Source: Eledone cirrhosa
Lineage: Eukaryota
Direction of reading: 5' to 3'
NCBI GenBank assembly: GCA_964016885.1
Contig: OZ024741.1
Span: 254,820,001 to 254,884,000 of the forward strand
DNA length: 64,000 bases
Part shown: positions 1 through 64,000 of the stretch, piece by piece
Layout: the number at the start of each line of letters is the position of its first letter
How positions within the stretch are numbered: position 1 is the first letter of the stretch
Made by a program: the position numbers and the translations under genes
Notes under the pieces: generated by a model
The model's input: the letters and a program-made list of their open reading frames with translations, nothing else
The model's database searches: none
Told to the model about the DNA's origin: nothing

Positions 1-2247
1 TTTGACTTACGGTGTTTCGGCTTACGAGTGATTAGACTTACGAGTGTTTTGACTTACGGGTGTTTTGACTTACGGGTGTTGTGAATTACGAGTGTTCCGA
101 TTTACGAGTGTTTTTACTTACGGTGTTTCGGCTTACAAGTGATTCGACTTACGAATGTTTTGACTTACGGGTGTTTCGGCTTGCGAGTGTTTCGACTTAC
201 GAGTGTTTCGGCTTATGAGTGTTTCGACTTACTAATGTTTTTACTTACGTGTGTTTCGGCGTACGAGTGTTTTGACTTACGAGTGTTTCGACTTACGAGT
301 GTTTTGACTTACGAATGTTTTGACTTACGGGTGTTTCGGCTTACGAGTGTTTCGACTTACGAGTGTTTCGGCTTGCGAGTGTTTCGACTTACTAATGTTT
401 TTACTTACGAGTGTTTCGGCGTACGAGTGTTTCGACTTACGAGTGTTTCGACTTACGGGTGTTTTGACTTACGGTGTTTCGGCTTACGAGTGTTTCGACT
501 TACGAGTGTTTTGACTTAAGGGTGTTTCGACTTACGAGTGTTTCGACTTACGAGGGTTTCGACTTACGGGTGTTTCGACTTACGAGTGTTTTGGCTTACG
601 GTGTTTCGACTTACGAGTGTTTCGACTTACGAGTGTTTTGACTTAAGGGTGTTTCGACTTACGGGTGTTTTGGCTTACGGTGTTTCGACTTACGAGTATT
701 TCGATACGAGTGTTTCGGCTTACGAGTGTTTCGACTTACGAGTGTTCTGATTTACGGATGTTTCGACATACGAGTGTTTCGACTTACGAGTGTTTCGACT
801 TACGAGTGTTTTGACTTACGGGTGTTTTGACATACGAGTGTTTCGATGCGAGTGTTTCGACTTACGAGTGTTCTGACTTACGATTGTTCTGACTTACGAG
901 CGTTCTGACTTACGAGTGTTTCGGCTTACGAGTGTTTCGGCGTACGAGTGTTTCGACTTACGAGTGTTTCGACTTACGGGTGTTTTGACTTACGGGTGTT
1001 TCGGCTTACGAGTGTTTCGACTTACGAGTGTTTCGACTTACGGGTGTTTCGATTACGAGTGTTTTGGCTTACGGTGTTTCGACCTACGAGTGTTTCGGCT
1101 TGTGAGTGTTTTGACTTAAGGGTGTTTCGACTTACGAGTGTTTCGATACGAGTGTTTCGACTTACGAGTGTTTCGGCTTACGAGTGTTTCGACTTACGGG
1201 TGTTTTGACTTAGGGGTGTTTCAGCTTACGAGTGTTTCGACTTACGAGTGTTTTGACTTAAGGGTGTTTCGACTTACGAGTGTTTCGACTTACGAGTGTT
1301 TCGAGTTACGGGTGTTTCGACTTACGAGTGTTTTGGCTTACGGTCTTTCGACTTACGAGTGTTTCGACTTACGAGTGTTTTGACTTAAGGGTGTTTCGAC
1401 TTACGAGTATTTCGATACGAGTGTTTCGGCTTACGAGTGTTTCGACTTACGAGTGTTTCGACTTACGAGTGTTCTGATTTACGGATGTTTCGACATACGA
1501 GTGTTTCGACTTACGAGTGTTTCGGCTTACGAGTGTTTCGGCGTACGAGTGTTTCGACTTACGAGTGTTTCGACTTACGGGTGTTTTGACTTACGGGTGT
1601 TTCGGCTTACGAGTGTTTCGACTTACGAGTGTTTCGACTTACGGGTGTTTCGATTACGAGTGTTTTGGCTTACGGTGTTTCGACTTACGAGTGTTTCGGC
1701 TTACGAGTGTTTTGACTTAAGGGTGTTTCGACTTACGAGTGTTTCGATACGAGTGTTTCGACTTACGAGTGTTTCGGCTTACGAGTGTTTCGACTTACGA
1801 GTGTTTCGACTTACGAGTGTTCTGATTTACGGATGTTTCGACATACGAGTGTTTCGACTTACGAGTGTTTCGACTTACGAGTGTTCTGACTTACGATTGT
1901 TCTGACTTACGAGCGTTCTGACTTACCAGTGTTTCGGCTTACGAGTGTTTCGGCTTACGAGTGTTTCGACTTACGAGTGTTTCGACTTACGAGTGTTCCG
2001 ACTTACGGGTGTTTCGACTTACGAGTGTTTTGGCTTACGGTGTTTCGACTTACGAGTGTTTCGAGTTAAGAGTGTTTTGACTTACGCGTGTTTTGACATA
2101 CGAGTGTTCTGACTTACGAGTGTTCTGACTTACGAGTATTTTGACTTACGAGTGTTCTGACTTACGAGTGTTCTGACTTACGAGTGTTCCGACTTTACGA
2201 GTGTTTCGGCTCACGAGTGTTTCGGCTTACGAGTGTTTCGACTTACG

Positions 2248-2316
2248 AAAATAACAAATAGACGCGGTTTCAAATCTCTATGCTTTTCAAATTCATTACA
2301 TTAATCTTTATTTATA
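2248..2316 (-). promoter_or_regulatory. Putative minus-strand poly(A)-signal/TATA-like motif within the linker (example copy)
   Basis: The reverse complement reads TATAAATAAA (2316-2307), then CA 24 nt after AATAAA, then TATTTGTTATTTT about 20 nt further on. This is a motif match only, in AT-rich DNA, with no functional evidence. Confidence 0.25.
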
Positions 2317-2317
2317 C
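2249..2317 (+). repeat. Reference copy of the 69-bp linker (17/69 G+C)
   Basis: AAATAACAAATAGACGCGGTTTCAAATCTCTATGCTTTTCAAATTCATTACATTAATCTTTATTTATAC. It sits inside a monomer (…ACTTACGA|linker|GTTTCGCTTTACGAG…) and contains TTTCAAAT twice. Confidence 0.96.
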
Positions 2318-5300
2318 GTTTCGCTTTACGAGTGTTTCGACTTACGAGTGTTTCGACATACGAGTGTTTCGACTTACGAATGTTTTTGCTTACGGGTGTT
2401 TCGACTTACGAATGTTTTTGCTTACGAGTGTTTCGGTTTACGAGTATTCCGACTTACGAGTGTTCCGACTTGCGAGTGTTTCGGCTTACGAGTGTTTCCA
2501 GCTTACGAGTGTTTCGACTTACGAGTGTTTCGACTTACGAGTGTTTCGAATTACGAGTGTTTCGACTTACGAGTGTTTTGACTTACGGGTGTTCTGACTT
2601 ACGAGTGTTCTGACTTACAAGTGTTCTTACTTACGAGTGTTCCGACTTACGAGTGTTCCGACTTACGAGTGTTTCGGCTTACGAGTGTTTTGATTTACGA
2701 GTGTTTTGATTTACGGGTGCTTCGATGTACGCGTGTTTCGACTTACGAGTGTTTCGACTTACGAGTGTTTCGACTTACGAGTGTTTCGGCTTACGAGTGT
2801 TTTGACTTACGAATGTTTTGACTTACGATTGTTTCGGCTTACGAGTGTTTCGACTTACGAGTGTTCTGACTACGAGTGTTCTGACTGACGGGTATTCTGA
2901 CTTACGAGTGTTCCGACTTACGAGTGTTTCGGCTTATGAGTGTTTCGACTTACGAGTGCTTCGACTTACGAGTGTTTCGGCTTACGGGTGTTTCGACTTA
3001 CGAATGTTTTTGCTTACGAGTGTTTCGGCTTACAAGTGTTTCGGCTTATGAGTGTTTCGACTTACGAGTGTTTTGACTTACGGGTGTTTTGACATACGAG
3101 TGTTTCGATACGAGTGTTCTGACTTACGAGTGTTTCCGCTTACGAGTGTTTCGGCTTACGAGTGTTTCGACTTACTAATGTTTTTACTTACGAGTGTTTC
3201 GGTGTACGAGTGTTTCGACTTAAGGATGTTTCGACTTACGGGTGTTTCGGCTTACGAGTGTTTCGACTTACGAGTGTTTTGACTTACGAGTGTTCTGACT
3301 TACGAGTGTTCTGACTTATGAGTGTTCCGACTTACGAGTGTTCCGACTTACGAGTGTTTCGGCTTATGAGTGTTTCGACTGACGAGTGTTTCGGCTTACG
3401 GGTGTTTCGACGTACGAGTATTTTTGGCTTACGAGTGTTTCGACTTACGAGTGTTTTGAATTACGATTGTTTCGGCTTACGAGTGTTTCGACTTACGAGT
3501 GTTTCGACTTACGAGTGTTTCGACTTACGAGTGTTCTGACTTACGAGTGTTCTGACTTACGAGTGTTCTGACTTACGGGTGTTCTGACTTAGGTGTGTTC
3601 CGACTTACGAGTGTTTCGGCTATGGGTGTTTCGACTTACGAGTGTTTCGACTTACAAATGTTTTGGCTTACGAGTGTTTCGGCTTACGAGTGTATCGACT
3701 TACGAATGTTTTGGCTTACGAGTGTTTCGGCTTACGGGTGTTTCGACTTACGAGTGTTTCGACTTACGAGTGTTTTGACTTACGGTGTTTCGGCTTACGA
3801 GTTATTCGACATACGAGTGTTTCAACTTACGGGTGTTTCGACTTACGGGTGTTTCGACTTACGAGTGTTTCGACTTATGAGTGTTTCGACTTACGAGTGT
3901 TCTGACTTACGAGTGTTCTGACTTACGAGTGTTCCGACTTACGAGTGTTTAGGTTTACGAGTGTTTCGACACATGAGTGTTTTGACTTACGGGTGTTTCG
4001 ACTTACGGGTGTTTCGACTTACGAGTGTTTCGGCTTACGAGTGTTTCGACTTACTAATGTTTTTACTTACGAGTGTTTCGGTGTACGAGTGTTTCGACTT
4101 AAGGATGTTTCGATTTACGAGTGTCTCGACTTACGAGTGTTTCGGCTTACGTGAGTTTCGACTTAAGAGTGTTCTGATTTACGAGTGTTCTGACTTGCGG
4201 GTGTTCTGATTTACGAGTGTTCCGACTTACGAGTGTTTCGGCTTATGAGTGTTTCGACTTACGAGTGTTTCGGCTTACGAGTGTTTCGCCTTATGGGTGT
4301 TTCGACTTACGAGTGTTTTTACTTACGGTGTTTCGGCTTCCGAGTGTTTCGACATACGAGTGTTTTGACTTACGGGTGTTTCGGCTTACGAGTGTTTCGA
4401 CTTACGAGTGTTTCGGCTTACGAGTGTTTCGACTTACTAATGTTTTTACTTACGAGTGTTTCGGCGTACGAGAGTTTTGACTTACGTGTGTTTCGGCTCA
4501 CGAGTGTTTCGACTTACGAGTGTTTCGACTTACGAGTGTTTCGACTGACGAGTGTTTCGACTTACGAGTGTTTTGACTTACTGGTGTTTTGACATACGAG
4601 TGTTTCGATACGAGTGTTTCGACTTACGAGTGTTCTGACTTACGAGTGTTCTAACTTTCGAGTGTTCTGACTTATGAGTGTTCTGACTTACGAGTGTTCC
4701 GACTTACGAGTGTTTCGGCTCACGAGTGTTTCGGCTTACGAGTGTTTCGACTTACGAAAATAACAAATAGACGCGGTTTCAAATCTCTATGCTTTTCAAA
4801 TTCATTACATTAATCTTTATTTATACGTTTCGCTTTACGAGTGTTTCGACTTACGAGTGTTTCGACTTACGAGTGTTTCGGCTTACGAGTGTTTTGACTT
4901 ACGAGTGTTTTGACTTACATGTGTTTCGACTTACGCGTGTTTCGACTTACGAGTGTTTCGACTTGCGAGTGTTTCGACTACGGGTGTTTCGACTTACGAA
5001 TGTTTTGACTTACGGATGTTTTGACTTACGGGTGTTTCGGCTTACGAGTGTTTCCACTTACGAGTGTTTCGACTTGCGAGTGTTTTCACTTCGAGTGTTT
5101 TGACTTACGGTGTTTCGGCTTACGAGTGTTTCGACTTACAAGTGTTTTGACTTACGGGTGTTTTGACATACGAGTGTTTCGATACGAGTGTTCTGACTTA
5201 CGAGTGTTCTGACTTACGAGTGTTCTGACTTACGAGTGTTCTGACTTACGAGTGTTCTGACTTACGAGTGTTCTGACATACGTGTGTTCTGACTTACGAG

Positions 5301-5427
5301 TGTTCCGATTTACGAGTGTTTCGGCTTATGAGTGTTTCGACTTACGAATGTTTTTGCTTACGGGTGTTTCGACTTACGAATGTTTTTGATTACGAGTGTT
5401 TCGGCTTACGAGTGTTTCGACTTACCA

Positions 5428-5496
5428 AAATAACAAATAGACGTGGTTTCAAATCTCTATGCTTTTCAAATTCATTACATTATTCTTTATTTACAC
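5428..5496 (+). repeat. Most divergent linker copy
   Basis: ACGTGG replaces ACGCGG, TTATTC replaces TTAATC and TTTACAC replaces TTTATAC. It is preceded by CTTACCA and lacks the usual upstream CCGACTTTAC/GGCTCAC ladder. Confidence 0.9.
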
Positions 5497-42000: not shown

Positions 42001-42647
42001 GACTTACGAGTGTTTCGACTTACGAGTGTTTTGACTTACGAATGTTTTGACTTACGGGTGTTTCGGCTTACGAGTGTTTCGACTTACGAGTGTTTCGGCT
42101 TGCGAGTGTTTCGACTTACTAATGTTTTTACTTACGAGTGTTTCGGCGTACGAGTGTTTCGACTTACGAGTGTTTCGACTTACGGGTGTTTTGACTTACG
42201 GGTGTTTCGGCTTACGAGTGTTTCGACTTACGAGTGTTTTGACTTAAGGGTGTTTCGACTTACGAGTGTTTCGACTTAGGAGTGTTTTGACTTACGGGTG
42301 TTTTGACATACGAGTGTTCCGACTTACGAGTGTTCCGACTTACGAGTGTTTCGGCTTACGAATGTTTCGACTTACGAGTGTTTCGACTTACGAGTGTTCC
42401 GACTTACGGGTGTTTCGACTTACGAGTGTTTTGGCTTACGGTGTTTCGGCTTACGAGTGTTTCGAGTTACGAGTGTTTTGACTTACGCGTGTTTTGACAT
42501 ACGACTGTTTCGATACGAGTGTTCTGACTTACGAGTGTTCTGCCTTACGAGTGTTCTGACTTACGAGTGTTCTGACTTACGAGTGTTCCGACTTTACGAG
42601 TGTTTCGGCTCACGAGTGTTTCGGCTTACGAGTGTTTCGACTTACGA
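36012..42647 (+). repeat. Two tandem copies of a 3318-bp higher-order repeat (D' 2102 bp + A' 1216 bp)
   Basis: Linker spacings are 2102, 1216, 2102, 1216. ORF-track entries recur at exactly +3318 (36043/39361, 37256/40574, 38145/41463, 38948/42266). Confidence 0.93.
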
Positions 42648-43199
42648 AAATAACAAATAGACGCGGTTTCAAATCTCTATGCTTTTCAAATTCATTACAT
42701 TAATCTTTATTTATACGTTTCGCTTTACGAGTGTTTCGACTTACGAGTGTTTCGACATACGAGTGTTTCGGCTTACGAGTGTTTTGATTTACGAGTGTTT
42801 TGACTTACGGGTGCCTCGACTTACGCGTGTTTCGACTTACGAGTGTTTCGACTTACGAGTGTTTCGGCTTACGAGTGTTTTGACTTACGAATGTTTTGAC
42901 TTACGATTGTTTCGGCTTACGAGTGGTTCGACTTACGAGTGTTCTGACTACGAGTGTTCTGACTTACGGGTGTTCTGACTTACGAGTGTTCCGACTTACG
43001 AGTGTTTCGGCTTATGAGTGTTTCGACTTACGAGTGTTCTGACTACGAGTGTTTCGACTTACGAGTGTTCTGACTACGAGTGTTCTGACTTACGGGTGTT
43101 CTGACTTACGAGTGTTCCGACTTACGAGTGCTTCGACTTACGAGTGTTTCGGCTTACGGGTGTTTCGACTTACGAATGTTTTTGCTTACGAGTGTTTCG

Positions 43200-44400
43200 G
43201 CTTACGAGTGTTTCGGCTTATGAGTGTTTCGACTTACGAGTGTTTTGACTTACGGGTGTTTTGACATACGAGTGTTTCGATACGAGTGTTCTGACTTACG
43301 AGTGTTTCCGCTTACGAGTGTTTCGGCTTACGAGTGTTGCGACTTACTAATGTTTTTACTTACGAGTGTTTCGGTGTAAGAGTGTTTCGACTTAACGATG
43401 TTTCGACTTACGAGTGTTTCGACTTACGAGTGTTTCGACTTACGATTGTTCCGACTTACGAGTGTTTCGGCTTATGAGTGTTTCGACTTACGGGCGTTTC
43501 GACTTACGGGTGTTTCGACTTACGAGTGTTTCGGCTTATGAGTGTTTCGACTTACGAGTGTTTTGACTTACGGGTGTTTTGACATACGAGTGTTTCGATA
43601 CGAGTGTTCTGACTTACGAGTGTTTCCGCTTACGAGCGTTTCGGCTTACGAGTGTTTCGACTTACTAATGTTTTTACTTACGAGTGTTTCGGTGTAAGAG
43701 TGTTTCGACTTAACGATGTTTCGACTTACGAGTGTTTCGACTCACGAGTGTTTCGGCTTACGAGTGTTTCGGCTTATGAGTGTTTCGACTTACGAGTGTT
43801 TTGACTTACGGGTGTTTTGACATACGAGTGTTTCGATACGAGTGTTCTGACTTACGAGTGTTTCCGCTTACGAGTGTTTCGGCTTACGAGTGTTGCGACT
43901 TACTAATGTTTTTACTTACGAGTGTTTCGGTGTAAGAGTGTTTCGACTTAACGATGTTTCGACTTACGAGTGTTTCGACTTACGAGTGTTTCGACTTACG
44001 ATTGTTCCGACTTACGAGTGTTTCGGCTTATGAGTGTTTCGACTTACGGGCGTTTCGACTTACGGGTGTTTCGACTTACGAGTGTTTCGGCTTATGAGTG
44101 TTTCGACTTACGAGTGTCTTGACTTACGGGTGTTTTGACATACGAGTGTTTCGATACGAGTGTTCTGACTTACGAGTGTTTCCGCTTACGAGTGTTTCGG
44201 CTTACGAGTGTTTCGACTTACTAATGTTTTTACTTACGAGTGTTTCGGTGTAAGAGTGTTTCGACTTAACGATGTTTCGACTTACGAGTGTTTCGACTTA
44301 CGAGTGTTTCGACTTACGAGTGTTCCGACTTACGAGTGTTTCGGCTTATGAGTGTTTCGACTTACGGGCGTTTCGACTTACGGGTGTTTCGACTTACGAG
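43200..44400 (+). repeat. Internal 318/238-bp sub-repeat expanded to four copies within a D block
   Basis: The marker GGTGTAAGAGTGTTTCGACTTAACGATG occurs at 43373, 43691, 43929 and 44247 (spacings 318, 238, 318). Confidence 0.9.
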
Positions 44401-50190: not shown

Positions 50191-52137
50191 TGTTTTAACT
50201 TACGAGTGTTCTGACTTACGAGTGTTCTGACTTACGAGTGTTCCGACTTACGACTGTTTCGACTTACGAGTGTTTTGACTTACGAGTGTTCCGACTTACG
50301 AGTGTTTCGGCTTACGGGTGTTTCGACGTACGAGTATTTTTGGCTTACGAGTGTTCCGACTTACGAGTGTCTCGGCTTACGAGTGTTTCGGCTTACGAGT
50401 GTTTCGACTTACGAGTGTTTCGACTTACGAGTGTTCCGACTTACGGGTGTTTCGACTTACGAGTGTTTTGGCTTACGGTGTTTCGACTTACGAGTGTTTC
50501 GGCTTACGAGTGTTTTGACTTAAGGGTGTTTCGACTTACGAGTGTTTCGATACGAGTGTTTCGACTTACGAGTGTTTCGGCTTACGAGTGTTTCGACTTA
50601 CGAGTGTTTCGACTTACGAGTGTTCTGATTTACGGATGTTTCGACATACGAGTGTTTCGACTTACGAGTGTTTCGACTTACGAGTGTTTTGACTTACGTG
50701 TGTTTTGACATACGAGTGTTTCGATACGAGTGTTTCGACTTACGATTGTTCTGACTTACGATTGTACTGACTTACGAGCGTTCTGGCTTACGAGTGTTTC
50801 GGCTTACGAGTGTTTCGGCTTACGAGTGTTTCGACTTACGAGTGTTTCGACTTACGAGTGTTCCGACTTACGGGTGTTTCGACTTACGAGTGTTTTAGCT
50901 TACGGTGTTTAGACTTACGGGTGTTTCGAGTTAAGAGTGTTTTGACTTACGCGTGTTTTGACATACGAGTGTTCTGACTTACGAGTGTTCTGACTTACGA
51001 GTGTTCTGACTTACGAGTGTTCCGACTTTACGAGTGTTTCGGCTCACGAGTGTTTCGGCTTACGAGTGTTTCCTCTTACGAAAATAACAAATAGACGCGG
51101 TTTCAAATCTCTATGCTTTTCAAATTCATTACATTAATCTTTATTTATACGTTTCGCTTTACGAGTGTTTCGACTTACGAGTGTTTCGACATACGAGTGT
51201 TTCGACTTACGAACGTTTTTGCTTACGGGTGTTTCGACTTACGAATGTTTTTGCTTACGAGTGTTTCGGTTTACGAGTGTTCCGACTTACGAGTGTTCCG
51301 ACTTACGAGTGTTTCGGCTTACGAGTGTTTCCGGCTTACGAGTGTTTCGACTTACGAGTGTTTCGACTTACGAGTGTTTTGACTTACGGTGTTTCGGCTT
51401 ACGAGTGATTAGACTTACGAGTGTTTTGACTTACGGGTGTTTTGACTTACGGGTGTTGTGAATTACGAGTGTTCCGATTTACGAGTGTTTTGACTTACGG
51501 TGTTTCGGCTTACAAGTGATTCGACTTACGAATGTTTTGACTTACGGGTGTTTCGGCTTGCGAGTATTTCGACTTACGAGTGTTTCGGCTTATGAGTGTT
51601 TCGACTTACTAATGTTTTTACTTACGAGTGTTTCGGCGTACGAGTGTTTTGACTTACGAGTGTTTCGACTTACGAGTGTTTTGACTTACGAATGTTTTGA
51701 CTTACGGGTGTTTCGGCTTACGAGTGTTTCGACTTACGAGTGTTTCGGCTTGCGAGTGTTTCGACTTACTAATGTTTTTACTTACGAGTGTTTCGGCGTA
51801 CGAGTGTTTCGACTTACGAGTGTTTCGACTTACGGGTGTTTTGACTTACGAGTGTTCTGACTTACGAGTGTTCTGATTTACGGATGTTTCGACACACGAG
51901 TGTTTCGAATTACGAGTGTTTCGACTTACAAGTGTTTTGGCTTACGGTGTTTCGGCTTACAAGTGTTTCGAGTTACGAGTGTTTTGACTTACGCGTGTTT
52001 TGACATACGAGTGTTTCGATACGAGTGTTCTGACTTACGAGTGTTCTGACTTACGAGTGTTCTGACTTACGAGTGTTCCGACTTTACGAGTGTTTCGGCT
52101 CACGAGTGTTTCGGCTTACGAGTGTTTCGACTTACGA

Positions 52138-55100
52138 AAATAACAAATAGACGCGGTTTCAAATCTCTATGCTTTTCAAATTCATTACATTAATCTTTTT
52201 TTATACGTTTCGCTTTACGAGTGTTTCGACTTACGAGTGTTTCGACATACGAGTGTTTCGGCTTACGAGTGTTTTGATTTACGAGTGTTTTGACTTACGG
52301 GTGCTTCGACTTACGCGTGTTTCGACTTACGTGTGTTTCGACTTACGAGTGTGTCGACTTACGAGTGTTTCGGCTGGCGAGTGTTTCGACTTACGAGTGT
52401 TTTGACTTAAGGGTGTTTCGACTTACGAGTGTTTCGACTTACGAGTGTTTCGGCGTACGAGTGTTTTGACTTACGAGTGTTTCGACTTACGCGTGTTTTG
52501 ACTTACGAATGTTTTGACTTACGAGTGTTTCGGCTTGCGAGTGTTTCGACTTACTAATGTTTTTACTTACGAGTGTTTCGGCGTACGAGTGTTTCGACTT
52601 ACGAGTGTTTCGACTTACGGGTGTTTTGACTTACGGGTGTTTCGGCTTACGAGTGTTTCGACTTACGAGTGTTTTGACTTAAGGGTGTTTCGACTTACGA
52701 GTGTTTCGACTTAGGAGTAATTTGACTTACGGGTGTTTTGACATACGAGTGTTTCGATACGAGTGTTTCGACTTACGAGTGTTCTGACTTACGAGTGTTC
52801 TGACTTACGAGTGTTCTGACTTACAAGTGTTCTTACTTACGAGTGTTCCGACTTACGAGTGTTCCGACTTACGAGTGTTTCGGCTTACGAATGTTTCGAC
52901 TTACGAGTGTTTCGACTTACGAGTGTTCCGACTTACGGGTGTTTCGACTTACGAGTGTTTTGGCTTACGGTGTTTCGGCTTACGAGTGTTTCGAGTTACG
53001 AGTGTTTTGACTTACGCGTGTTTTGACATACGAGTGTTTCGATACGAGTGTTCTGACTTACGAGTGTTCTGCCTTACGAGTGTTCTGACTTACGAGTGTT
53101 CTGACTTACGAGTGTTCCGACTTTACGAGTGTTTCGGCTCACGAGTGTTTCGGCTTACGAGTGTTTCGACTTACGAAAATAACAAATAGACGCGGTTTCA
53201 AATCTCTATGCTTTTCAAATTCATTACATTAATCTTTATTTATACGTTTCGCTTTACGAGTGTTTCGACTTACGAGTGTTTCGACATACGAGTGTTTCGG
53301 CTTACGAGTGTTTTGATTTACCAGTGTTTTGACTTACGGGTGCTTCGACTTACGCGTGTTTCGAATTACGAGTGTTTCGACTTACGAGTGTTTCGGCTTA
53401 CGAGTGTTTTGACTTACGAATGTTTTGACTTACGATTGTTTCGGCTTACGAGTGTTTCGACTTACGAGTGTTCTGACTACGAGTGTTCTGACTTACGGGT
53501 GTTCTGACTTACGAGTGTTCCGACTTACGAGTGTTTCGGCTTATGAGTGTTTCGACTGACGAGTGTTCTGACTACGAGTGTTTCGACTTACGAGTGTTCT
53601 GACTACGAGTGTTCTGACTTACGGGTGTTCTGACTTACGAGTGTTCCGACTTACGAGTGCTTCGACTTACGAGTGTTTCGGCTTACGGGTGTTTCGACGT
53701 ACGAATGTTTTTGCTTACGAGTGTTTCGGCTTACGAGTGTTTCGGCTTATGAGTGTTTCGACTTACGAGTGTTTTGACTTACGGGTGTTTTGACATACGA
53801 GTGTTTCGATACGAGTGTTCTGACTTACGAGTGTTTCCGCTTACGAGTGTTTCGGCTTACGAGTGTTGCGACTTACTAATGTTTTTACTTACGAGTGTTT
53901 CGGTGTAAGAGTGTTTCGACTTAACGATGTTTTGACTTACGAGTGTTTCGACTTACGAGTGTTTCGACTTACGATTGTTCCGACTTACGAGTGTTTCGGC
54001 TTATGAGTGTTTCGACTTACGGGCGTTTCGACTTACGGGTGTTTCGACTTACGAGTGTTTAGGCTTATGAGTGTTTCGATTTACGAGTGTTTTGACTTAC
54101 GGGTGTTTTGACATACGAGTGTTTCGATACGAGTGTTCTGACTTACGAGTGTTTCCGCTTACGAGTGTTTCGGCTTACGAGTGTTTCGACTTACTAATGT
54201 TTTTACTTACGAGTGTTTCGGTGTAAGAGTGTTTCTACTTAACGATGTTTCGACTTACGAGTGTTTCGACTTACGAGTGTTTCGACTTACGAGTGTTCCG
54301 ACTTACGAGTGTTTCGGCATATGAGTGTTTCGACTTACGGGCGTTTCGACTTACGGGTGTTTCGACTTACGAGTGTTTTGACTTACGAGTATTCTGACTT
54401 ACCAGTGTTCTGACTTACGAGTGTTCCGACTTACGACTGTTTCGACTTACGAGTGTTTTGACTTACGAGTGTTCCGACTTACGAGTGTTTCGGCTTACGG
54501 GTGTTTCGACGTACGAGTATTTTTGGCTTACGAGTGTTCCGACTTACGAGTGTCTCGGCTTACGAGTGTTTCGGCTTACGAGTGTTTCGACTTACAAGTG
54601 TTTCGACTTACGAGTGTTCCGACTTACGTGTGTTTCGACTTACGAGTGTTTTGGCTTACGGTGTTTCGACTTACGAGTGTTTCGGCTTACGAGTGTTTTG
54701 ACTTAAGGGTGTTTCGACTTACGAGTGTTTCGATACGAGTGTTTCGACTTACGAGTGTTTCGGCTTACGAGTGTTTCGACTTACGAGTGTTTCGACTTAC
54801 GAGTGTTCTGATTTACGGATGTTTCGACATACGAGTGTTTCGACTTACGAGTGTTTCGACTTACGAGTGTTTTGACTTACGTGTGTTTTGACATACGAGT
54901 GTTTCGATACGAGTGTTTCGACTTACGATTGTTCTGACTTACGATTGTACTGACTTACGAGCGTTCTGACTTACGAGTGTTTCGGCTTACGAGTGTTTCG
55001 GCTTACAAGTGTTCTTACTTACGAGTGTTCCGACTTACGGGTGTTTCGACTTACGAGTGTTTTGGCTTACGGTGTTATGGCTTACGAGTGTTTCGAGTTA

Positions 55101-58100
55101 CGAGTGTTTTGACTTACGCGTGTTTTGACATACGAGTGTTTCGATACGAGTGTTCTGACTTACGAGTGTTCTGCCTTACGAGTGTTCTGACTTACGAGTG
55201 TTCTGACTTACGAGTGTTCCGACTTTACGAGTGTTTCGGCTCACGAGTGTTTCGGCTTACGAGTGTTTCGACTTACGAAAATAACAAATAGACGCGGTTT
55301 CAAATCTCTATGCTTTTCAAATTCATTACATTAATCTTTATTTATACGTTTCGCTTTACGAGTGTTTCGACTTACGAGTGTTTCGACATACGAGTGTTTC
55401 GACTTACGAATGTTTTTGCTTACGGGTGTTTCGACTTACGAATGTTTTTGCTTACGAGTGTTTCGGTTTACGAGTGTTCCGACTTACGAGTGTTCCGACT
55501 TACGAGTGTTTCGGCTTACGAGTGTTTCCGGCTTACGAGTGTTTCGACTTACGAGTGTTTCGACTTACGAGTGTTTTGACTTACGGTGTTTCGGCTTAAG
55601 AGTGATTAGACTTACGAGTGTTTTGACTTACGGGTGTTTAGACTTACGGGTGTTGTGAATTACGAGTGTTCCGATTTACGAGTGTTTTGACTTACGGTGT
55701 TTCGGCTTACAAGTGATTCGACTTACGAATGTTTTGACTTACGGGTGTTTCGGCTTGCGAGTATTTCGACTTACGAGTGTTTCGGCTTATGAGTGTTTCG
55801 ACTTACTAATGTTTTTACTTACGAGTGTTTCGGCGTACGAGTGTTTTGACTTACGAGTGTTTCGACTTACGAGTGTTTTGACTTACGAATGTTTTGACTT
55901 ACGGGTGTTTCGGCTTACGAGTGTTTCGACTTACGAGTGTTTCGGCTTGCGAGTGTTTCGACTTACTAATGTTTTTACTTACGAGTGTTTCGGCGTACGA
56001 GTGTTTCGACTTACGAGTGTTTCGACTTACGGGTGTTTTGACTTACGGGTGTTTCGGCTTACGAGTGTTTCGACTTACGAGTGTTTTGACTTAAGGGTGT
56101 TTCGACTTACGAGTGTTTCGACTTAGGAGTGTTTTGACTTACGGGTGTTTTGACATACGAGTGTTCCGACTTACGAGTGTTCCGACTTACGAGTGTTTCG
56201 GCTTACGAATGTTTCGACTTACGAGTGTTTCGACTTACGAGTGTTCCGACATACGGGTGTTTCGACTTACGAGTGTTTTGGCTTACGGTGTTTCGGCTTA
56301 CGAGTGTTTCGAGTTACGAGTGTTTTGACTTACGCGTGTTTTGACATACGAGTGTTTCGATACGAGTGTTCTGACTTACGAGTGTTCTGACTTACGAGTG
56401 TTCTGACTTACGAGTGTTCCGACTTTACGAGTGTTTCGGCTCACGAGTGTTTCGGCTTACGAGTGTTTCGACTTACGAAAATAACAAATAGACGCGGTTT
56501 CAAATCTCTATGCTTTTCAAATTCATTACATTAATCTTTATTTATACGTTTCGCTTTACGAGTGTTTCGACTTACGAGTGTTTCGACATACGAGTGTTTC
56601 GGCTTACGAGTGTTTTGATTTACGAGTGTTTTGACTTACGGGTGCTTCGACTTACGCGTGTTTCGACTTACGTGTGTTTCGACTTACGAGTGTGTCGACT
56701 TACGAGTGTTTCGGCTGGCGAGTGTTTCGACTTACGAGTGTTTTGACTTAAGGGTGTTTCGACTTACGAGTGTTTCGACTTACGAGTGTTTCGGCGTACG
56801 AGTGTTTTGACTTACGAGTGTTTCGACTTACGCGTGTTTTGACTTACGAATGTTTTGACTTACGAGTGTTTCGGCTTGCGAGTGTTTCGACTTACTAATG
56901 TTTTTACTTACGAGTGTTTCGGCGTACGAGTGTTTCGACTTACGAGTGTTTCGACTTACGGGTGTTTTGACTTACGGGTGTTTCGGCTTACGAGTGTTTC
57001 GACTTACGAGTGTTTTGACTTAAGGGTGTTTCGACTTACGAGTGTTTCGACTTAGGAGTAATTTGACTTACGGGTGTTTTGACATACGAGTGTTTCGATA
57101 CGAGTGTTTCGACTTACGAGTGTTCTGACTTACGAGTGTTCTGACTTACGAGTGTTCTGACTTACAAGTGTTCTTACTTACGAGTGTTCCGACTTACGAG
57201 TGTTCCGACTTACGAGTGTTTCGGCTTACGAATGTTTCGACTTACGAGTGTTTCGACTTACGAGTGTTCCGACTTACGGGTGTTTCGACTTACGAGTGTT
57301 TTGGCTTACGGTGTTTCGGCTTACGAGTGTTTCGAGTTACGAGTGTTTTGACTTACGCGTGTTTTGACATACGAGTGTTTCGATACGAGTGTTCTGACTT
57401 ACGAGTGTTCTGCCTTACGAGTGTTCTGACTTACGAGTGTTCTGACTTACGAGTGTTCCGACTTTACGAGTGTTTCGGCTCACGAGTGTTTCGGCTTACG
57501 AGTGTTTCGACTTACGAAAATAACAAATAGACGCGGTTTCAAATCTCTATGCTTTTCAAATTCATTACATTAATCTTTATTTATACGTTTCGCTTTACGA
57601 GTGTTTCGACTTACGAGTGTTTCGACATACGAGTGTTTCGGCTTACGAGTGTTTTGATTTACCAGTGTTTTGACTTACGGGTGCTTCGACTTACGCGTGT
57701 TTCGAATTACGAGTGTTTCGACTTACGAGTGTTTCGGCTTACGAGTGTTTTGACTTACGAATGTTTTGACTTACGATTGTTTCGGCTTACGAGTGTTTCG
57801 ACTTACGAGTGTTCTGACTACGAGTGTTCTGACTTACGGGTGTTCTGACTTACGAGTGTTCCGACTTACGAGTGTTTCGGCTTATGAGTGTTTCGACTTA
57901 CGAGTGTTCTGACTACGAGTGTTTCGACTTACGAGTGTTCTGACTACGAGTGTTCTGACTTACGGGTGTTCTGACTTACGAGTGTTCCGACTTACGAGTG
58001 CTTCGACTTACGAGTGTTTCGGCTTACGGGTGTTTCGACGTACGAATGTTTTTGCTTACGAGTGTTTCGGCTTACGAGTGTTTCGGCTTATGAGTGTTTC

Positions 58101-60730
58101 GACTTACGAGTGTTTTGACTTACGGGTGTTTTGACATACGAGTGTTTCGATACGAGTGTTCTGACTTACGAGTGTTTCCGCTTACGAGTGTTTCGGCTTA
58201 CGAGTGTTGCGACTTACTAATGTTTTTACTTACGAGTGTTTCGGTGTAAGAGTGTTTCGACTTAACGATGTTTTGACTTACGAGTGTTTCGACTTACGAG
58301 TGTTTCGACTTACGATTGTTCCGACTTACGAGTGTTTCGGCTTATGAGTGTTTCGACTTACGGGCGTTTCGACTTACGGGTGTTTCGACTTACGAGTGTT
58401 TAGGCTTATGAGTGTTTCGATTTACGAGTGTTTTGACTTACGGGTGTTTTGACATACGAGTGTTTCGATACGAGTGTTCTGACTTACGAGTGTTTCCGCT
58501 TACGAGTGTTTCGGCTTACGAGTGTTTCGACTTACTAATGTTTTTACTTACGAGTGTTTCGGTGTAAGAGTGTTTCTACTTAACGATGTTTCGACTTACG
58601 AGTGTTTCGACTTACGAGTGTTTCGACTTACGAGTGTTCCGACTTACGAGTGTTTCGGCATATGAGTGTTTCGACTTACGGGCGTTTCGACTTACGGGTG
58701 TTTCGACTTACGAGTGTTTTGACTTACGAGTATTCTGACTTACCAGTGTTCTGACTTACGAGTGTTCCGACTTACGACTGTTTCGACTTACGAGTGTTTT
58801 GACTTACGAGTGTTCCGACTTACGAGTGTTTCGGCTTACGGGTGTTTCGACGTACGAGTATTTTTGGCTTACGAGTGTTCCGACTTACGAGTGTCTCGGC
58901 TTACGAGTGTTTCGGCTTACGAGTGTTTCGACTTACAAGTGTTTCGACTTACGAGTGTTCCGACTTACGTGTGTTTCGACTTACGAGTGTTTTGGCTTAC
59001 GGTGTTTCGACTTACGAGTGTTTCGGCTTACGAGTGTTTTGACTTAAGGGTGTTTCGACTTACGAGTGTTTCGATACGAGTGTTTCGACTTACGAGTGTT
59101 TCGGCTTACGAGTGTTTCGACTTACGAGTGTTTCGACTTACGAGTGTTCTGATTTACGGATGTTTCGACATACGAGTGTTTCGACTTACGAGTGTTTCGA
59201 CTTACGAGTGTTTTGACTTACGTGTGTTTTGACATACGAGTGTTTCGATACGAGTGTTTCGACTTACGATTGTTCTGACTTACGATTGTACTGACTTACG
59301 AGCGTTCTGACTTACGAGTGTTTCGGCTTACGAGTGTTTCGGCTTACAAGTGTTCTTACTTACGAGTGTTCCGACTTACGGGTGTTTCGACTTACGAGTG
59401 TTTTGGCTTACGGTGTTATGGCTTACGAGTGTTTCGAGTTACGAGTGTTTTGACTTACGCGTGTTTTGACATACGAGTGTTTCGATACGAGTGTTCTGAC
59501 TTACGAGTGTTCTGCCTTACGAGTGTTCTGACTTACGAGTGTTCTGACTTACGAGTGTTCCGACTTTACGAGTGTTTCGGCTCACGAGTGTTTCGGCTTA
59601 CGAGTGTTTCGACTTACGAAAATAACAAATAGACGCGGTTTCAAATCTCTATGCTTTTCAAATTCATTACATTAATCTTTATTTATACGTTTCGCTTTAC
59701 GAGTGTTTCGACTTACGAGTGTTTCGACATACGAGTGTTTCGACTTACGAATGTTTTTGCTTACGGGTGTTTCGACTTACGAATGTTTTTGCTTACGAGT
59801 GTTTCGGTTTACGAGTGTTCCGACTTACGAGTGTTCCGACTTACGAGTGTTTCGGCTTACGAGTGTTTCCGGCTTACGAGTGTTTCGACTTACGAGTGTT
59901 TCGACTTACGAGTGTTTTGACTTACGGTGTTTCGGCTTAAGAGTGATTAGACTTACGAGTGTTTTGACTTACGGGTGTTTAGACTTACGGGTGTTGTGAA
60001 TTACGAGTGTTCCGATTTACGAGTGTTTTGACTTACGGTGTTTCGGCTTACAAGTGATTCGACTTACGAATGTTTTGACTTACGGGTGTTTCGGCTTGCG
60101 AGTATTTCGACTTACGAGTGTTTCGGCTTATGAGTGTTTCGACTTACTAATGTTTTTACTTACGAGTGTTTCGGCGTACGAGTGTTTTGACTTACGAGTG
60201 TTTCGACTTACGAGTGTTTTGACTTACGAATGTTTTGACTTACGGGTGTTTCGGCTTACGAGTGTTTCGACTTACGAGTGTTTCGGCTTGCGAGTGTTTC
60301 GACTTACTAATGTTTTTACTTACGAGTGTTTCGGCGTACGAGTGTTTCGACTTACGAGTGTTTCGACTTACGGGTGTTTTGACTTACGGGTGTTTCGGCT
60401 TACGAGTGTTTCGACTTACGAGTGTTTTGACTTAAGGGTGTTTCGACTTACGAGTGTTTCGACTTAGGAGTGTTTTGACTTACGGGTGTTTTGACATACG
60501 AGTGTTCCGACTTACGAGTGTTCCGACTTACGAGTGTTTCGGCTTACGAATGTTTCGACTTACGAGTGTTTCGACTTACGAGTGTTCCGACTTACGGGTG
60601 TTTCGACTTACGAGTGTTTTGGCTTACGGTGTTTCGGCTTACGAGTGTTTCGAGTTACGAGTGTTTTGACTTACGCGTGTTTTGACATACGAGTGTTTCG
60701 ATACGAGTGTTCTGACTTACGAGTGTTCTG
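52138..60730 (+). repeat. Tandem 4341-bp higher-order repeat (B/C hybrid 1039 + D' 2102 + A' 1200)
   Basis: ORF-track entries recur at exactly +4341 (52169/56510, 53208/57549, 54421/58762, 55310/59651). Rare variants GTGTGTCGAC and TTAGGAGTAATTTGAC are shared. Confidence 0.92.
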
Positions 60731-63700
60731 CCTTACGAGTGTTCTGACTTACGAGTGTTCTGACTTACGAGTGTTCCGACTTTACGAGTGTTTCGGCTCA
60801 CGAGTGTTTCGGCTTACGAATGTTTCGACTTACGAAAATAACAAATAGACGCGGTTTCAAATCTCTATGCTTTTCAAATTCATTACATTAATCTTTATTT
60901 ATACGTTTCGCTTTACGAGTGTTTCGACTTACGAGTGTTTCGACATACGAGTGTTTCGGCTTACGAGTGTTTTGATTTACCAGTGTTTTGACTTACGGGT
61001 GCTTCGACTTACGCGTGTTTCGAATTACGAGTGTTTCGACTTACGAGTGTTTCGGCTTACGAGTGTTTTGACTTACGAATGTTTTGACTTACGATTGTTT
61101 CGGCTTACGAGTGTTTCGACTTACGAGTGTTCTGACTACGAGTGTTCTGACTTACGGGTGTTCTGACTTACGAGTGTTCCGACTTACGAGTGTTTCGGCT
61201 TATGAGTGTTTCGACTTACGAGTGTTCTGACTACGAGTGTTTCGACTTACGAGTGTTCTGACTACGAGTGTTCTGACTTACGGGTGTTCTGACTTACGAG
61301 TGTTCCGACTTACGAGTGCTTCGACTTACGAGTGTTTCGGCTTACGGGTGTTTCGACGTACGAATGTTTTTGCTTACGAGTGTTTCGGCTTACGAGTGTT
61401 TCGGCTTATGAGTGTTTCGACTTACGAGTGTTTTGACTTACGGGTGTTTTGACATACGAGTGTTTCGATACGAGTGTTCTGACTTACGAGTGTTTCCGCT
61501 TACGAGTGTTTCGGCTTACGAGTGTTGCGACTTACTAATGTTTTTACTTACGAGTGTTTCGGTGTAAGAGTGTTTCGACTTAACGATGTTTTGACTTACG
61601 AGTGTTTCGACTTACGAGTGTTTCGACTTACGATTGTTCCGACTTACGAGTGTTTCGGCTTATGAGTGTTTCGACTTACGGGCGTTTCGACTTACGGGTG
61701 TTTCGACTTACGAGTGTTTAGGCTTATGAGTGTTTCGATTTACGAGTGTTTTGACTTACGGGTGTTTTGACATACGAGTGTTTCGATACGAGTGTTCTGA
61801 CTTACGAGTGTTTCCGCTTACGAGTGTTTCGGCTTACGAGTGTTTCGACTTACTAATGTTTTTACTTACGAGTGTTTCGGTGTAAGAGTGTTTCTACTTA
61901 ACGATGTTTCGACTTACGAGTGTTTCGACTTACGAGTGTTTCGACTTACGAGTGTTCCGACTTACGAGTGTTTCGGCATATGAGTGTTTCGACTTACGGG
62001 CGTTTCGACTTACGGGTGTTTCGACTTACGAGTGTTTTGACTTACGAGTATTCTGACTTACCAGTGTTCTGACTTACGAGTGTTCCGACTTACGACTGTT
62101 TCGACTTACGAGTGTTTTGACTTACGAGTGTTCCGACTTACGAGTGTTTCGGCTTACGGGTGTTTCGACGTACGAGTATTTTTGGCTTACGAGTGTTCCG
62201 ACTTACGAGTGTCTCGGCTTACGAGTGTTTCGGCTTACGAGTGTTTCGACTTACAAGTGTTTCGACTTACGAGTGTTCCGACTTACGTGTGTTTCGACTT
62301 ACGAGTGTTTTGGCTTACGGTGTTTCGACTTACGAGTGTTTCGGCTTACGAGTGTTTTGACTTAAGGGTGTTTCGACTTACGAGTGTTTCGATACGAGTG
62401 TTTCGACTTACGAGTGTTTCGGCTTACGAGTGTTTCGACTTACGAGTGTTTCGACTTACGAGTGTTCTGATTTACGGATGTTTCGACATACGAGTGTTTC
62501 GACTTACGAGTGTTTCGACTTACGAGTGTTTTGACTTACGTGTGTTTTGACATACGAGTGTTTCGATACGAGTGTTTCGACTTACGATTGTTCTGACTTA
62601 CGATTGTACTGACTTACGAGCGTTCTGACTTACGAGTGTTTCGGCTTACGAGTGTTTCGGCTTACAAGTGTTCTTACTTACGAGTGTTCCGACTTACGGG
62701 TGTTTCGACTTACGAGTGTTTTGGCTTACGGTGTTATGGCTTACGAGTGTTTCGAGTTACGAGTGTTTTGACTTACGCGTGTTTTGACATACGAGTGTTT
62801 CGATACGAGTGTTCTGACTTACGAGTGTTCTGCCTTACGAGTGTTCTGACTTACGAGTGTTCTGACTTACGAGTGTTCCGACTTTACGAGTGTTTCGGCT
62901 CACGAGTGTTTCGGCTTACGAGTGTTTCGACTTACGAAAATAACAAATAGACGCGGTTTCAAATCTCTATGCTTTTCAAATTCATTACATTAATCTTTAT
63001 TTATACGTTTCGCTTTACGAGTGTTTCGACTTACGAGTGTTTCGACATACGAGTGTTTCGACTTACGAATGTTTTTGCTTACGGGTGTTTCGACTTACGA
63101 ATGTTTTTGCTTACGAGTGTTTCGGTTTACGAGTGTTCCGACTTACGAGTGTTCCGACTTACGAGTGTTTCGGCTTACGAGTGTTTCCGGCTTACGAGTG
63201 TTTCGACTTACGAGTGTTTCGACTTACGAGTGTTTTGACTTACGGTGTTTCGGCTTAAGAGTGATTAGACTTACGAGTGTTTTGACTTACGGGTGTTTAG
63301 ACTTACGGGTGTTGTGAATTACGAGTGTTCCGATTTACGAGTGTTTTGACTTACGGTGTTTCGGCTTACAAGTGATTCGACTTACGAATGTTTTGACTTA
63401 CGGGTGTTTCGGCTTGCGAGTATTTCGACTTACGAGTGTTTCGGCTTATGAGTGTTTCGACTTACTAATGTTTTTACTTACGAGTGTTTCGGCGTACGAG
63501 TGTTTTGACTTACGAGTGTTTCGACTTACGAGTGTTTTGACTTACGAATGTTTTGACTTACGGGTGTTTCGGCTTACGAGTGTTTCGACTTACGAGTGTT
63601 TCGGCTTGCGAGTGTTTCGACTTACTAATGTTTTTACTTACGAGTGTTTCGGCGTACGAGTGTTTCGACTTACGAGTGTTTCGACTTACGGGTGTTTTGA

Positions 63701-64000
63701 CTTACGGGTGTTTCGGCTTACGAGTGTTTCGACTTACGAGTGTTTTGACTTAAGGGTGTTTCGACTTACGAGTGTTTCGACTTAGGAGTGTTTTGACTTA
63801 CGGGTGTTTTGACATACGAGTGTTCCGACTTACGAGTGTTCCGACTTACGAGTGTTTCGGCTTACGAATGTTTCGACTTACGAGTGTTTCGACTTACGAG
63901 TTTTCCGACTTACGGGTGTTTCGACTTACGAGTGTTTTGGCTTACGGTGTTTCGGCTTACGAGTGTTTCGAGTTACGAGTGTTTTGACTTACGCGTGTTT
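57518..64000 (+). repeat. Second run of the 3318-bp D'A' higher-order repeat, continuing past the window end
   Basis: Exact +3318 recurrence: 57549/60867, 58762/62080, 59651/62969, 60454/63772. Confidence 0.93.

What the first reader, a model, noticed from the sequence alone, without database searches (positions are those of the whole stretch)
1..64000. Monomer resembles pogo/Tigger terminal-repeat motifs and has CENP-B-box-like CpG geometry
Seen: the minus strand reads GTCG-AAAC-A-CT-CGTA. This matches 6 of the 9 essential CENP-B box positions (TTCG-nnnn-A-nn-CGGG) with the same 9-bp CpG spacing, and 7 of 9 in the TTTCGAATTAC variant. The common + strand variant TTCG-ACTT-A-CGGG is that core minus 2 nt. 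Established: CENP-B is a domesticated pogo-family transposase, and satellites can arise from DNA-transposon subterminal repeats. From memory, not verified: many pogo/Tigger-like elements have ends of the form CAGTGG(T/A)ACCTCGACTTACGA with internal repeats of TCGACTTACGAG. Inference: this may be an amplified transposase-binding site, and so a candidate centromeric or heterochromatic array read by a convergently domesticated pogo protein. It is not a canonical mammalian CENP-B box.
Basis: partly seen in the sequence, partly recalled or inferred. Interest (0 to 1): 0.75.

Follow-up and report, generated by a model that had tools for sequence, protein, structure and literature searches.

The report
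Satellite grown from a Helitron's inner repeat
This window is a long run of a 16-letter DNA repeat that likely expanded from a tiny repeat inside a rolling-circle jumping gene; its likeness to the mammalian centromere-protein site is no better than chance, although it does match the end motif of a second jumping-gene family in the same genome.

Summary
The whole window is a 16-bp satellite (consensus TTTCGACTTACGAGTG, 4011 units) with 45 copies of a 71-bp linker. The CENP-B-box likeness is at chance level: 6 of 9 is reached by 22-36% of shuffled monomers, and no full essential box occurs on either strand.

The pogo recall held up in part. The motif has 0 exact hits in the host but 190 at up to 2 mismatches (1 in the control). 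The main form is the inverted end repeat of TA-flanked Tigger-like elements, whose ends match the satellite 14/15 and 30/36 in 16-bp phase.

The array did not grow from that element. The linker plus 3-4 monomers sit inside a young, dispersed ~510-bp non-autonomous Helitron-type element (about 220 copies) built like the HINE/DINE-1 elements. That element's head lies at the left end of this 329-kb block. Intermediates of 13 monomers and of 4 kb exist.

This is a transposon-derived satellite of a known kind (Drosophila DINE-TR1, oyster Cg_HINE). It lies in a ~8.6-Mb multi-satellite domain of contig C2. Large arrays were seen only on C1 and C2. A centromere role and a pogo-derived reader protein remain untested.

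The parts
1..64000 (+). 16-bp satellite array, consensus TTTCGACTTACGAGTG. It is an inner part of a ~329-kb block (C2:~254,735,08x to ~255,064,235).
   Evidence: TRF. Wrap-around segmentation gave 4011 units, 3515 of them 16 nt long; 779 are the exact consensus and there are 248 distinct forms. Block ends.
2248..2318 (+). First of 45 copies of the 71-bp linker (AAAATAACAAATAGACGCGG...TTTATTTATACG). This is the spacer of the Helitron-type element, carried into the array. The other copies end at 4827, 5497, 6644, 8748, 9817, 10933, 11987, 13170, 13938, 15724, 16892, 17947, 19319, 20421, 21440, 22623, 23326, 25430, 26598, 27653, 28437, 29809, 30930, 32113, 32897, 34660, 36081, 38183, 39399, 41501, 42717, 45379, 46531, 47714, 48498, 51151, 52207, 53246, 55348, 56548, 57587, 59689, 60905 and 63007.
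   Evidence: Each copy is followed by TTTCGCTTTACGAGTG (43 copies) or TTTCGCTTTACGTGTG (2 copies), the same first monomer as in the dispersed element.
36001..44000 (+). Very recent local duplication with a 3318-bp unit (two linkers, spacings 2102 + 1216). Identity at lag 3318 is 0.80-1.00 here and again at about 57-60 kb.
51001..60300 (+). Very recent local duplication with a 4341-bp unit (identity at lag 4341 is 0.81-1.00).

Best explanation
The window is part of a 16-bp satellite that most likely grew in place, by repeated unequal exchange or slippage, out of the short central tandem repeat of one copy of a ~510-bp non-autonomous Helitron-type transposon built like the HINE/DINE-1 elements.

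Shown:
- The dispersed element has this order: head TCTACTTATAATATATAATGGGC, a (GTCT)n-type microsatellite, a spacer (the 'linker'), 3-4 monomers (TTTCGCTTTACGAGTG, TTTCGACTTACGAGTG, TTTCGGCTTA...), a right module, and a 13-bp-stem hairpin ending in CTAG.
- It is young and scattered over many contigs.
- The left end of this very block is such a head. It carries a 10-bp deletion variant of the spacer, and all array linkers share that variant.
- Copies with 13 monomers, and with a 4-kb array that ends in the element's tail, exist elsewhere.

Inferred:
- Direction (element to satellite).
- Mechanism: duplication of a unit that spans spacer plus monomers, then multi-kb segmental duplications.
- No sequence-specific function beyond building a satellite-rich, probably heterochromatic domain.
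- The 16-bp unit may itself descend from the terminal repeat motif of host Tigger-type elements (about 35%).
For: - The linker core (46 nt) has 2670 hits at up to 3 mismatches and 0 in the control, many of them single sites spread over C1 and C2.
- The junction found only in dispersed copies (AATGCCAAGGAAACAAATAGACGCGG...) has 220 hits, 116 forward and 104 reverse, on C1-C5 and beyond.
- All 14 dispersed copies fetched lie in the same element, with 3 or 4 monomers each. Fifteen complete copies have a median pairwise identity of 97.7%.
- The 3' hairpin folds at -14.1 kcal/mol, z = -6.5, and 0 of 200 shuffles fold as well. Its stem is 13 nt and perfect.
- The architecture fits the HINE description in PMC7492417: a left flank with a GTCY-type microsatellite, a variable spacer, central tandem repeats, and a right flank with a palindrome (passages read).
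- The left end of the block (L100 ~7084-7215) is the element's head, then GTAAAAAATAACAAATAGACGCGG, the linker, TTTCGCTTTACGAGTG, and the array. Array linkers begin ACGAAAATAACAAATAG, the same deletion variant.
- Intermediates: L098 is a complete copy with 13 perfect monomers. L099 is a 4-kb array with 6 array-type linkers that ends in the element's right module and hairpin.
- A related element next to L066 and L069 carries the linker sequence, so the linker is element backbone.
- RepHel genes are abundant in the genome: 150 of 150 scored candidates pass the cut-off, out of 3704 candidates. One 1718-aa open frame holds STPR, Helitron_like_N and PIF1 domains.
- Near-100% identical 3.3-kb and 4.3-kb duplications in the window, and 96-97% identical 601-bp stretches 20-85 kb apart, show ongoing local amplification.
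Against: - The right end of the block abuts another satellite directly, with no element tail. Both ends of the C1 array are also abrupt. No single array shows head and tail together.
- No autonomous partner was found. Six RepHel loci (20 kb each) share nothing with the element at E <= 1e-3.
- The target site and the absence of a target-site duplication were not tested with empty sites. Eight of 13 heads follow the same other module, so the true unit could be larger. The base before the head is A in 5 of 13 and G in 8 of 13; the base after CTAG is T in all copies that have a tail.
- Subterminal inverted repeats are weak (9 nt, 89%, AT-rich).
- The fetched dispersed copies were picked by an exact 46-nt match, which biases them towards young copies.
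- Only one genome could be searched, so age and direction rest on structure alone.
Confidence: 0.8

Rival explanations
1. The 16-bp unit descends from the terminal or subterminal repeat (the likely transposase-binding motif) of a Tigger/pogo element. A fragment of such an end would have become the central repeat of the Helitron-type element and was then amplified. This adds an earlier step to the main explanation rather than replacing it.
For: - The host Tigger-type family (here called Tigger-A) has a perfect 25-nt TIR, CAGTGGTACCTTGACTTACGAGTGT, with TA flanks.
- Its inner 15 nt equal the monomer variant TTTTGACTTACGAGTG (57 copies) and differ from the consensus only by TG for CG.
- Its right end matches 2.25 satellite units at 30/36 without gaps and in 16-bp phase. 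None of 3000 shuffled monomers reach 14/15 or 30/36.
- In 216,836 positions of fetched non-array loci, every window scoring 26/36 or more lies in the Helitron-type micro-arrays or in pogo-type ends.
- A second small non-autonomous transposon (MITE) family, TIR CAGTGGAACCTCGGCTYACGAAC, holds TTTCGGCTTACGAACA TTTCGGGTAATGAACG. That is a 16-bp tandem with 13/16 identity to the second commonest monomer.
- The Tigger-A MITE copies are older (median identity 92.2%, 6 copies) than the Helitron-type copies (97.7%, 15 copies).
Against: - Only the 16-bp motif is shared. There is no CAGTGGTACC remnant and no other Tigger sequence next to the micro-array.
- A 14/15 match to some transposon end is about what chance gives over all transposon ends of a 3-Gb genome (my estimate, not a call). 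The second and third units are not independent evidence, because they are copies of the first.
- The loci scanned were chosen for these elements, so they are a weak background.
Confidence: 0.35
2. Reverse direction: the satellite with its linker came first, and a Helitron-type element captured a linker plus 3-4 monomers and spread them.
For: Helitrons are known to capture host DNA (general knowledge). All dispersed copies carry the same short piece.
Against: - The linker continues leftwards into the element's own spacer, microsatellite and head at the array's left end.
- A related element carries the linker sequence.
- Central tandem repeats are a regular part of HINE architecture (PMC7492417).
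- The array linkers carry a derived 10-bp deletion that is present in the boundary copy but absent from the 220 dispersed copies.
Confidence: 0.08
3. One reading: the array is a centromeric or pericentromeric satellite whose units are bound by a pogo-derived (CENP-B-like) protein.
For: - The array lies in a ~8.6-Mb domain of several satellites at 61-63% of a 416-Mb contig.
- The unit resembles a pogo end motif.
- The genome has many pogo-type DNA-binding domains: 70 CENP-B_N matches, including a cluster at C4:234.67-234.83 Mb, and 510- and 514-aa open frames, the latter with HTH_Tnp_Tc5 and DDE_1.
Against: - The CENP-B-box likeness is at chance level and no full box occurs.
- Long arrays appeared only on C1 and C2: 25 of 25 hits of six perfect monomers are on C2, and all listed DNA matches are on C1 or C2, although only 40 of 2571 candidates were scored.
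- No open full-length Tigger-A reading frame was seen; the listed copies closest to the query have frames of 155-265 aa or carry stop codons.
- The intact relatives have a different TIR, CAGTGATACCTTGAGATACGAG.
- The four CENP-B_N loci fetched match the intact Tigger relative at only 25-28% identity (two of the four) and do not match Tigger-A's DNA-binding N-terminal fragment.
- The CENP-B_N model also rings in 2 of 14 bacterial controls.
Confidence: 0.08

Closest known systems
HINE / DINE-1-type non-autonomous Helitron-superfamily elements with central tandem repeats that give rise to satellites (oyster Cg_HINE and Cg170, PMC7492417; Drosophila DINE-TR1, Dias et al. 2015 as cited in PMC6947457)
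   Same: The order of parts is the same: head, GTCY-type microsatellite, variable spacer, central tandem repeats in one fixed orientation, right module ending in a palindrome. The same repeats occur both as short arrays in dispersed copies and as long satellite arrays.
   Different: The unit here is only 16 bp. The expansion reaches hundreds of kb per block and several Mb on one contig, and a piece of the spacer is carried along as a linker. Subterminal inverted repeats are not clear, and the ends look like a canonical Helitron (5' TC, 3' CTAG). No autonomous partner was found.
Mammalian CENP-B box in alpha-satellite, and its noted likeness to pogo/Tigger inverted end repeats (review PMC6947457, passages read; its reference 79 was not seen and is recalled as Kipling and Warburton 1997)
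   Same: A satellite unit resembles the end motif of a pogo-family transposon. It has two CpGs with a 9-bp start-to-start spacing.
   Different: The essential box is absent (0 occurrences; the consensus matches 7/9 at best). The CGGG half is missing. No CENP-B orthologue or binding is shown, and the array arose inside a Helitron-type element.
Host Tigger/pogo-type elements (here called Tigger-A, about 600-bp MITE form; and a MITE family with TIR CAGTGGAACCTCGGCTYACGAAC)
   Same: They share the motif YTCGRCTTACGA(G) and a 16-bp spacing of repeated units near the ends.
   Different: The satellite lacks the outer TIR half (CAGTGGTACC), the TA flanks and all inner Tigger sequence. The linker is not in these elements.

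Membership tests
CENP-B box | 17-bp box with nine essential positions, TTCG-N4-A-N2-CGGG | tested here: not met
0 occurrences on either strand of the window. The consensus matches 7/9 at best, and 29 positions reach 8/9.
CENP-B box | Bound by CENP-B or an orthologous pogo-derived protein at centromeres | not testable with these tools
   There are no binding or ChIP data. CENP-B_N-type domains do exist in the genome (70 matches).
Satellite derived directly from a pogo/Tigger element | The host has a TA-flanked TIR element of the pogo clade carrying the motif | tested here: met
   190 hits against 1 in the control. TA flanks and a 25-nt perfect TIR. HTH_Tnp_Tc5 at E = 8.3e-6 in the element's gene remnant; DDE_1 at E = 2.6e-37 in a 69%-identical relative.
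Satellite derived directly from a pogo/Tigger element | The array is continuous with the element (outer TIR half or inner sequence at an array end, or copies with expanded end repeats) | tested here: not met
   The TIR-to-second-monomer pattern gave 0 exact hits; all 40 hits at 1 mismatch are the plain TIR. The array's left end is a Helitron-type head and its right end abuts another satellite.
   blastn-short of linker plus flanks against all fetched loci gave only 11-15-nt matches (13 nt or less within the linker itself, the rest in the flanking monomer motif). The linker lies in the Helitron-type element.
Helitron-superfamily non-autonomous element (HINE/DINE-1-like) | 3' terminal palindrome or hairpin just before the end; 5' TC and 3' CTRR | tested here: met
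   CTAGCAGAAAACC / GGTTTTCTGCTAG, a 13-nt perfect stem at the 3' end, -14.1 kcal/mol, z = -6.5. Copies begin TCTAC and end CTAG.
Helitron-superfamily non-autonomous element (HINE/DINE-1-like) | Left flank with a (GTCY)n microsatellite, a variable spacer, central tandem repeats, and a right flank | tested here: met
   TTTGTTTGTCTGTCTGTCCGTCTG, then the spacer/linker, then 3-4 16-mers, then the right module, in 14 of 14 copies (one cut at its 5' end, one at its 3' end). The description is from PMC7492417.
Helitron-superfamily non-autonomous element (HINE/DINE-1-like) | No target-site duplication; insertion between A|T or T|T, shown by empty sites | tested here: inconclusive
   The base before the head is A in 5 of 13 and G in 8 of 13, the latter after a shared upstream module. 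The base after CTAG is T in all copies with a tail. No empty sites were examined.
Helitron-superfamily non-autonomous element (HINE/DINE-1-like) | Subterminal inverted repeats; an autonomous RepHel partner with the same ends | tested here: inconclusive
   Only a 9-nt, 89%, AT-rich inverted match links the two ends. RepHel genes are abundant, but 6 RepHel loci share nothing with the element.
Transposon-derived satellite by expansion of central repeats | Same monomers in dispersed copies and in long arrays; an array end keeps the element's flank; intermediates exist | tested here: met
Centromeric satellite | A major array at one place on each chromosome; CENP-A occupancy | tested here: inconclusive
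   Arrays were seen only on C1 (~100 kb, beside a 200-N gap) and C2 (several Mb), but only 40 of 2571 candidates were scored. CENP-A occupancy is not testable here.

The most novel reading that the evidence does not exclude
A transposase-binding end motif of Tigger/pogo elements was picked up as the central repeat of a Helitron-type element and blown up to several megabases. This made hundreds of thousands of potential docking sites for pogo-type DNA-binding domains in the main satellite domain of a large octopus-type chromosome. It would be an independent replay, by a two-transposon route, of the link between pogo end repeats, the CENP-B box and centromeric satellites. A neighbouring 19-bp satellite that resembles the very tip of another pogo end repeat would be a second case at the matching place on C1.
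Probability: 0.1. Interest if true: 0.7.

Novelty: new member of a known kind. Interest (0 to 1): 0.35.

Why it matters
The case shows, with both array boundary and intermediates in hand, how a multi-megabase satellite can be born from a few 16-bp units inside a small rolling-circle transposon. This route is documented in flies and oysters. As far as my paper searches show (listings only), it has not been described for cephalopods.

It also removes a tempting but unsupported CENP-B-box reading. One testable question remains: do pogo-type DNA-binding domains of this animal bind the unit, and does this satellite domain hold the centromere?

Tried and rejected
- The exact recalled TIR motif gave 0 hits.
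- The TIR-plus-second-monomer junction gave 0 exact hits.
- Linker against Tigger copies gave nothing beyond 13 nt within the linker itself; 15-nt matches lay only in the flanking monomer motif.
- A search for an autonomous partner among 6 RepHel loci gave no similarity.
- A full-text paper search for the monomer string CGACTTACGAG found 2 papers, both unrelated by title.
- A paper search for octopus + satellite DNA + centromere found 13 papers (11 listed). By title and abstract start, none is on cephalopod centromeres.
- A paper search for cephalopod + Helitron + tandem repeats + satellite found 7 papers. By listing, none describes such a satellite.
- A look-up of earlier findings by sequence found nothing.
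- Domesticated pogo heads as readers: the four CENP-B_N loci fetched do not match the Tigger-A N-terminal fragment. The idea is not excluded, only unsupported.
- The right end of the block was mapped in the hope of finding the element's tail. It abuts another satellite instead.
- Pan-chromosomal distribution could not be mapped, because listings stop at 100-150 rows and only the best candidates are scored.

Full report
WHAT IS THERE. The whole window is one head-to-tail array of period 16 (4..64000, 4010.9 copies, 81% matches, 3% indels). GC content is flat at 0.43-0.44 and GC and AT skew keep the same sign throughout.

A wrap-around alignment cuts the window into 4011 units:
- 3515 are 16 nt long.
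- 779 are the exact consensus TTTCGACTTACGAGTG.
- 337 are TTTCGGCTTACGAGTG.
- 256 are TTCTGACTTACGAGTG.
- 151 are TTTTGACTTACGGGTG.
- There are 248 distinct forms.

The most variable position is the C of the first CpG (68% C, 31% T). Its G partner and the second CpG stay at 93-95%. That pattern points to amplified variants, not to even decay.

The array is broken 45 times by a 71-bp linker, first copy at 2248-2318, at spacings of 0.7-2.7 kb. Parts of the window are near-100% identical at lags of 3318 and 4341 bp. Stretches of 601 bp recur at 96-97% identity 20-85 kb away. Amplification is therefore recent and local.

CHECK OF THE OBSERVATION.
- GTCGAAACACTCGTA occurs 709 times on the minus strand.
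- TTCGACTTACGGG occurs 96 times.
- The TTTCGAATTAC variant occurs only 17 times.
- CpG spacings are 9 and 7.

The CENP-B-box likeness does not exceed chance. A score of 6/9 is reached by 22% of shuffled monomers, or 36% if two CpGs are kept. The best alignment is 7/9 (3-7.5%). The full essential box occurs 0 times.

THE POGO LEAD. The window is G000:C2:254820001-254884000, in a 3.0-Gb genome. The recalled end motif has no exact hit there. At up to 2 mismatches it has 190 hits against 1 for the reversed control, mostly CAGTGGTACCTTGACTTACGA.

These hits are the inverted end repeats of TA-flanked elements, which I call Tigger-A:
- ~600-bp non-autonomous copies hold the remnant of a transposase N-terminus.
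- One 6.1-kb copy has perfect 25-nt TIRs and is broken by a nested LTR element.
- The gene remnant matches HTH_Tnp_Tc5.
- A 69%-identical relative has a 514-aa open frame with DDE_1 and HTH_Tnp_Tc5, but a different TIR.

The inner 15 nt of the Tigger-A TIR equal a monomer variant, 14/15 to the consensus. The right end reads as 2.25 diverged units in 16-bp phase, 30/36. None of 3000 shuffled monomers reach either score. A second MITE family has a 16-bp tandem, TTTCGGCTTACGAACA TTTCGGGT..., near its end.

The resemblance to host pogo ends is therefore real. Its weight is limited. Only the 16-bp motif is shared. Over all transposon ends of a 3-Gb genome, one 14/15 match is roughly what chance gives (my estimate). 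The loci scanned were chosen for these elements.

WHERE THE ARRAY REALLY COMES FROM. A pattern joining the TIR to a second monomer has no exact hit, and the linker is not in the Tigger copies. The linker core, in contrast, has 2670 hits in the genome, many as single scattered sites.

All fourteen such sites fetched lie in one ~510-bp element. Its parts, in order:
- head TCTACTTATAATATATAATGGGC;
- a GTCT-type microsatellite;
- the spacer (the linker);
- TTTCGCTTTACGAGTG, TTTCGACTTACGAGTG, an optional TTTCGGCTTACGAGTG, then TTTCGGCTTA;
- a right module;
- a 13-bp-stem hairpin ending in CTAG.

The junction found only in dispersed copies occurs 220 times, on both strands and on many contigs. Complete copies are 97.7% alike. 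This is the layout given for HINE elements of the Helitron superfamily, including the GTCY microsatellite (PMC7492417, passages read). RepHel genes are abundant in the genome, although six of them share nothing with this element.

The left end of this very block, about 85 kb before the window, is such a head followed by the spacer and then the array. Its spacer has a 10-bp deletion that all array linkers share. A full copy with 13 perfect monomers lies at C2:80.56 Mb. A 4-kb array with array-type linkers, ending in the element's tail and hairpin, lies at C2:240.96 Mb. The right end of the block abuts another satellite with no tail.

SETTING. Samples along C2 show the 16-mer in both orientations alternating with a ~36-39-bp satellite and a few non-satellite islands, from 254.42 to at least 263.0 Mb. 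Samples at 254.15-254.30 and at 263.5-264.7 Mb hold neither satellite. That is 61-63% of the way along a 416-Mb contig.

Exact consensus dimers number 15,253 in the genome against 171 in the window. At equal density that is about 5.7 Mb (an inference). Six perfect units in a row occur 25 times, all on C2. All listed DNA matches are on C2 or on a ~100-kb array at C1:279.30-279.39 Mb, but only 40 of 2571 candidates were scored. The C1 array lies among other satellites and beside a 200-N gap.

VERDICT. This is a transposon-derived satellite of a known kind: expansion of the central repeats of a Helitron-type non-autonomous element. The same route is known for Drosophila DINE-TR1 and oyster Cg_HINE (PMC6947457 and PMC7492417, passages read). 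PMC8268682, PMC12628747 and PMC10048060 were seen only as search listings.

The pogo-end likeness of the unit is genuine and may mark an older capture (about 35%). The CENP-B-box reading fails. A centromere role and a pogo-type reader protein are untested. Earlier notes of this scan call the genome octopus-type and report another Helitron-derived satellite elsewhere in it. I confirmed only that RepHel Helitrons are abundant.

Noticed in passing
G000:C1:279,407,8xx onward (L154 1424-3037; L132): A 19-bp satellite, AACCTCGACTTGGAGTGA(G/A), has 15,882 exact dimers, all on one strand. It starts right after a 200-N assembly gap, next to the C1 array of the 16-mer. Its unit resembles the very tip of the second pogo-type TIR (CAGTGGAACCTCGACTC...).
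   Followed up: partly
G000:C2:254.42-254.73, 255.07-255.30, 258.68, 260.2 Mb (L002, L003, L010, L013, L080-L083, L096, L118-L121): A second satellite, unit about 36-39 bp (CAACACTGGCACTGACAGAGAAAACAGCAACAA...), flanks the 16-mer blocks in both orientations. The junction with the 16-mer at C2:~255,064,236 is abrupt.
   Followed up: partly
G000:C25:19.2-25.4 Mb: Dozens of Tigger-A copies, many sharing the same TAG stops, are packed into about 6 Mb of one contig. This suggests the element is part of a larger amplified unit there.
   Followed up: no
L059 1700-1790, and the same place in L060-L063: Copies of the intact Tigger relative (514-aa frame) are joined on their 5' side to TTAGGG/CCCTAA-type repeats at the same position, and no 5' TIR was seen.
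   Followed up: no
window, + strand, all three frames: The consensus has no stop codon on the + strand, so open frames run up to 306 codons, against at most 57 on the minus strand. This follows from the 16-bp unit and is not a sign of coding.
   Followed up: yes
window, monomer positions 4-5: The first CpG shows C-to-T in 31% of units, but G-to-A in its partner in only 0.3-1.5%. The second CpG is 93-95% kept. Overall CpG observed/expected is 2.19.
   Followed up: partly
L142-L153 (six RepHel loci): (GTCT)n-type runs lie close to the RepHel reading frames. The 1718-aa frame starts with seven STPR repeats ahead of Helitron_like_N and PIF1.
   Followed up: no
G000:C4:234.67-234.83 Mb (L156-L158): Five CENP-B_N matches with open frames cluster within 165 kb. 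They are only 25-28% identical to the intact Tigger relative.
   Followed up: partly
L048 1270-5778: An LTR retrotransposon with 231-nt LTRs (98% alike) is nested in the 6.1-kb Tigger-A copy.
   Followed up: no
L064 -600..-400, L069, L075: tRNA-like SINE copies sit inside or beside the Helitron-type element copies. One interrupts L069 just after the micro-array.
   Followed up: no
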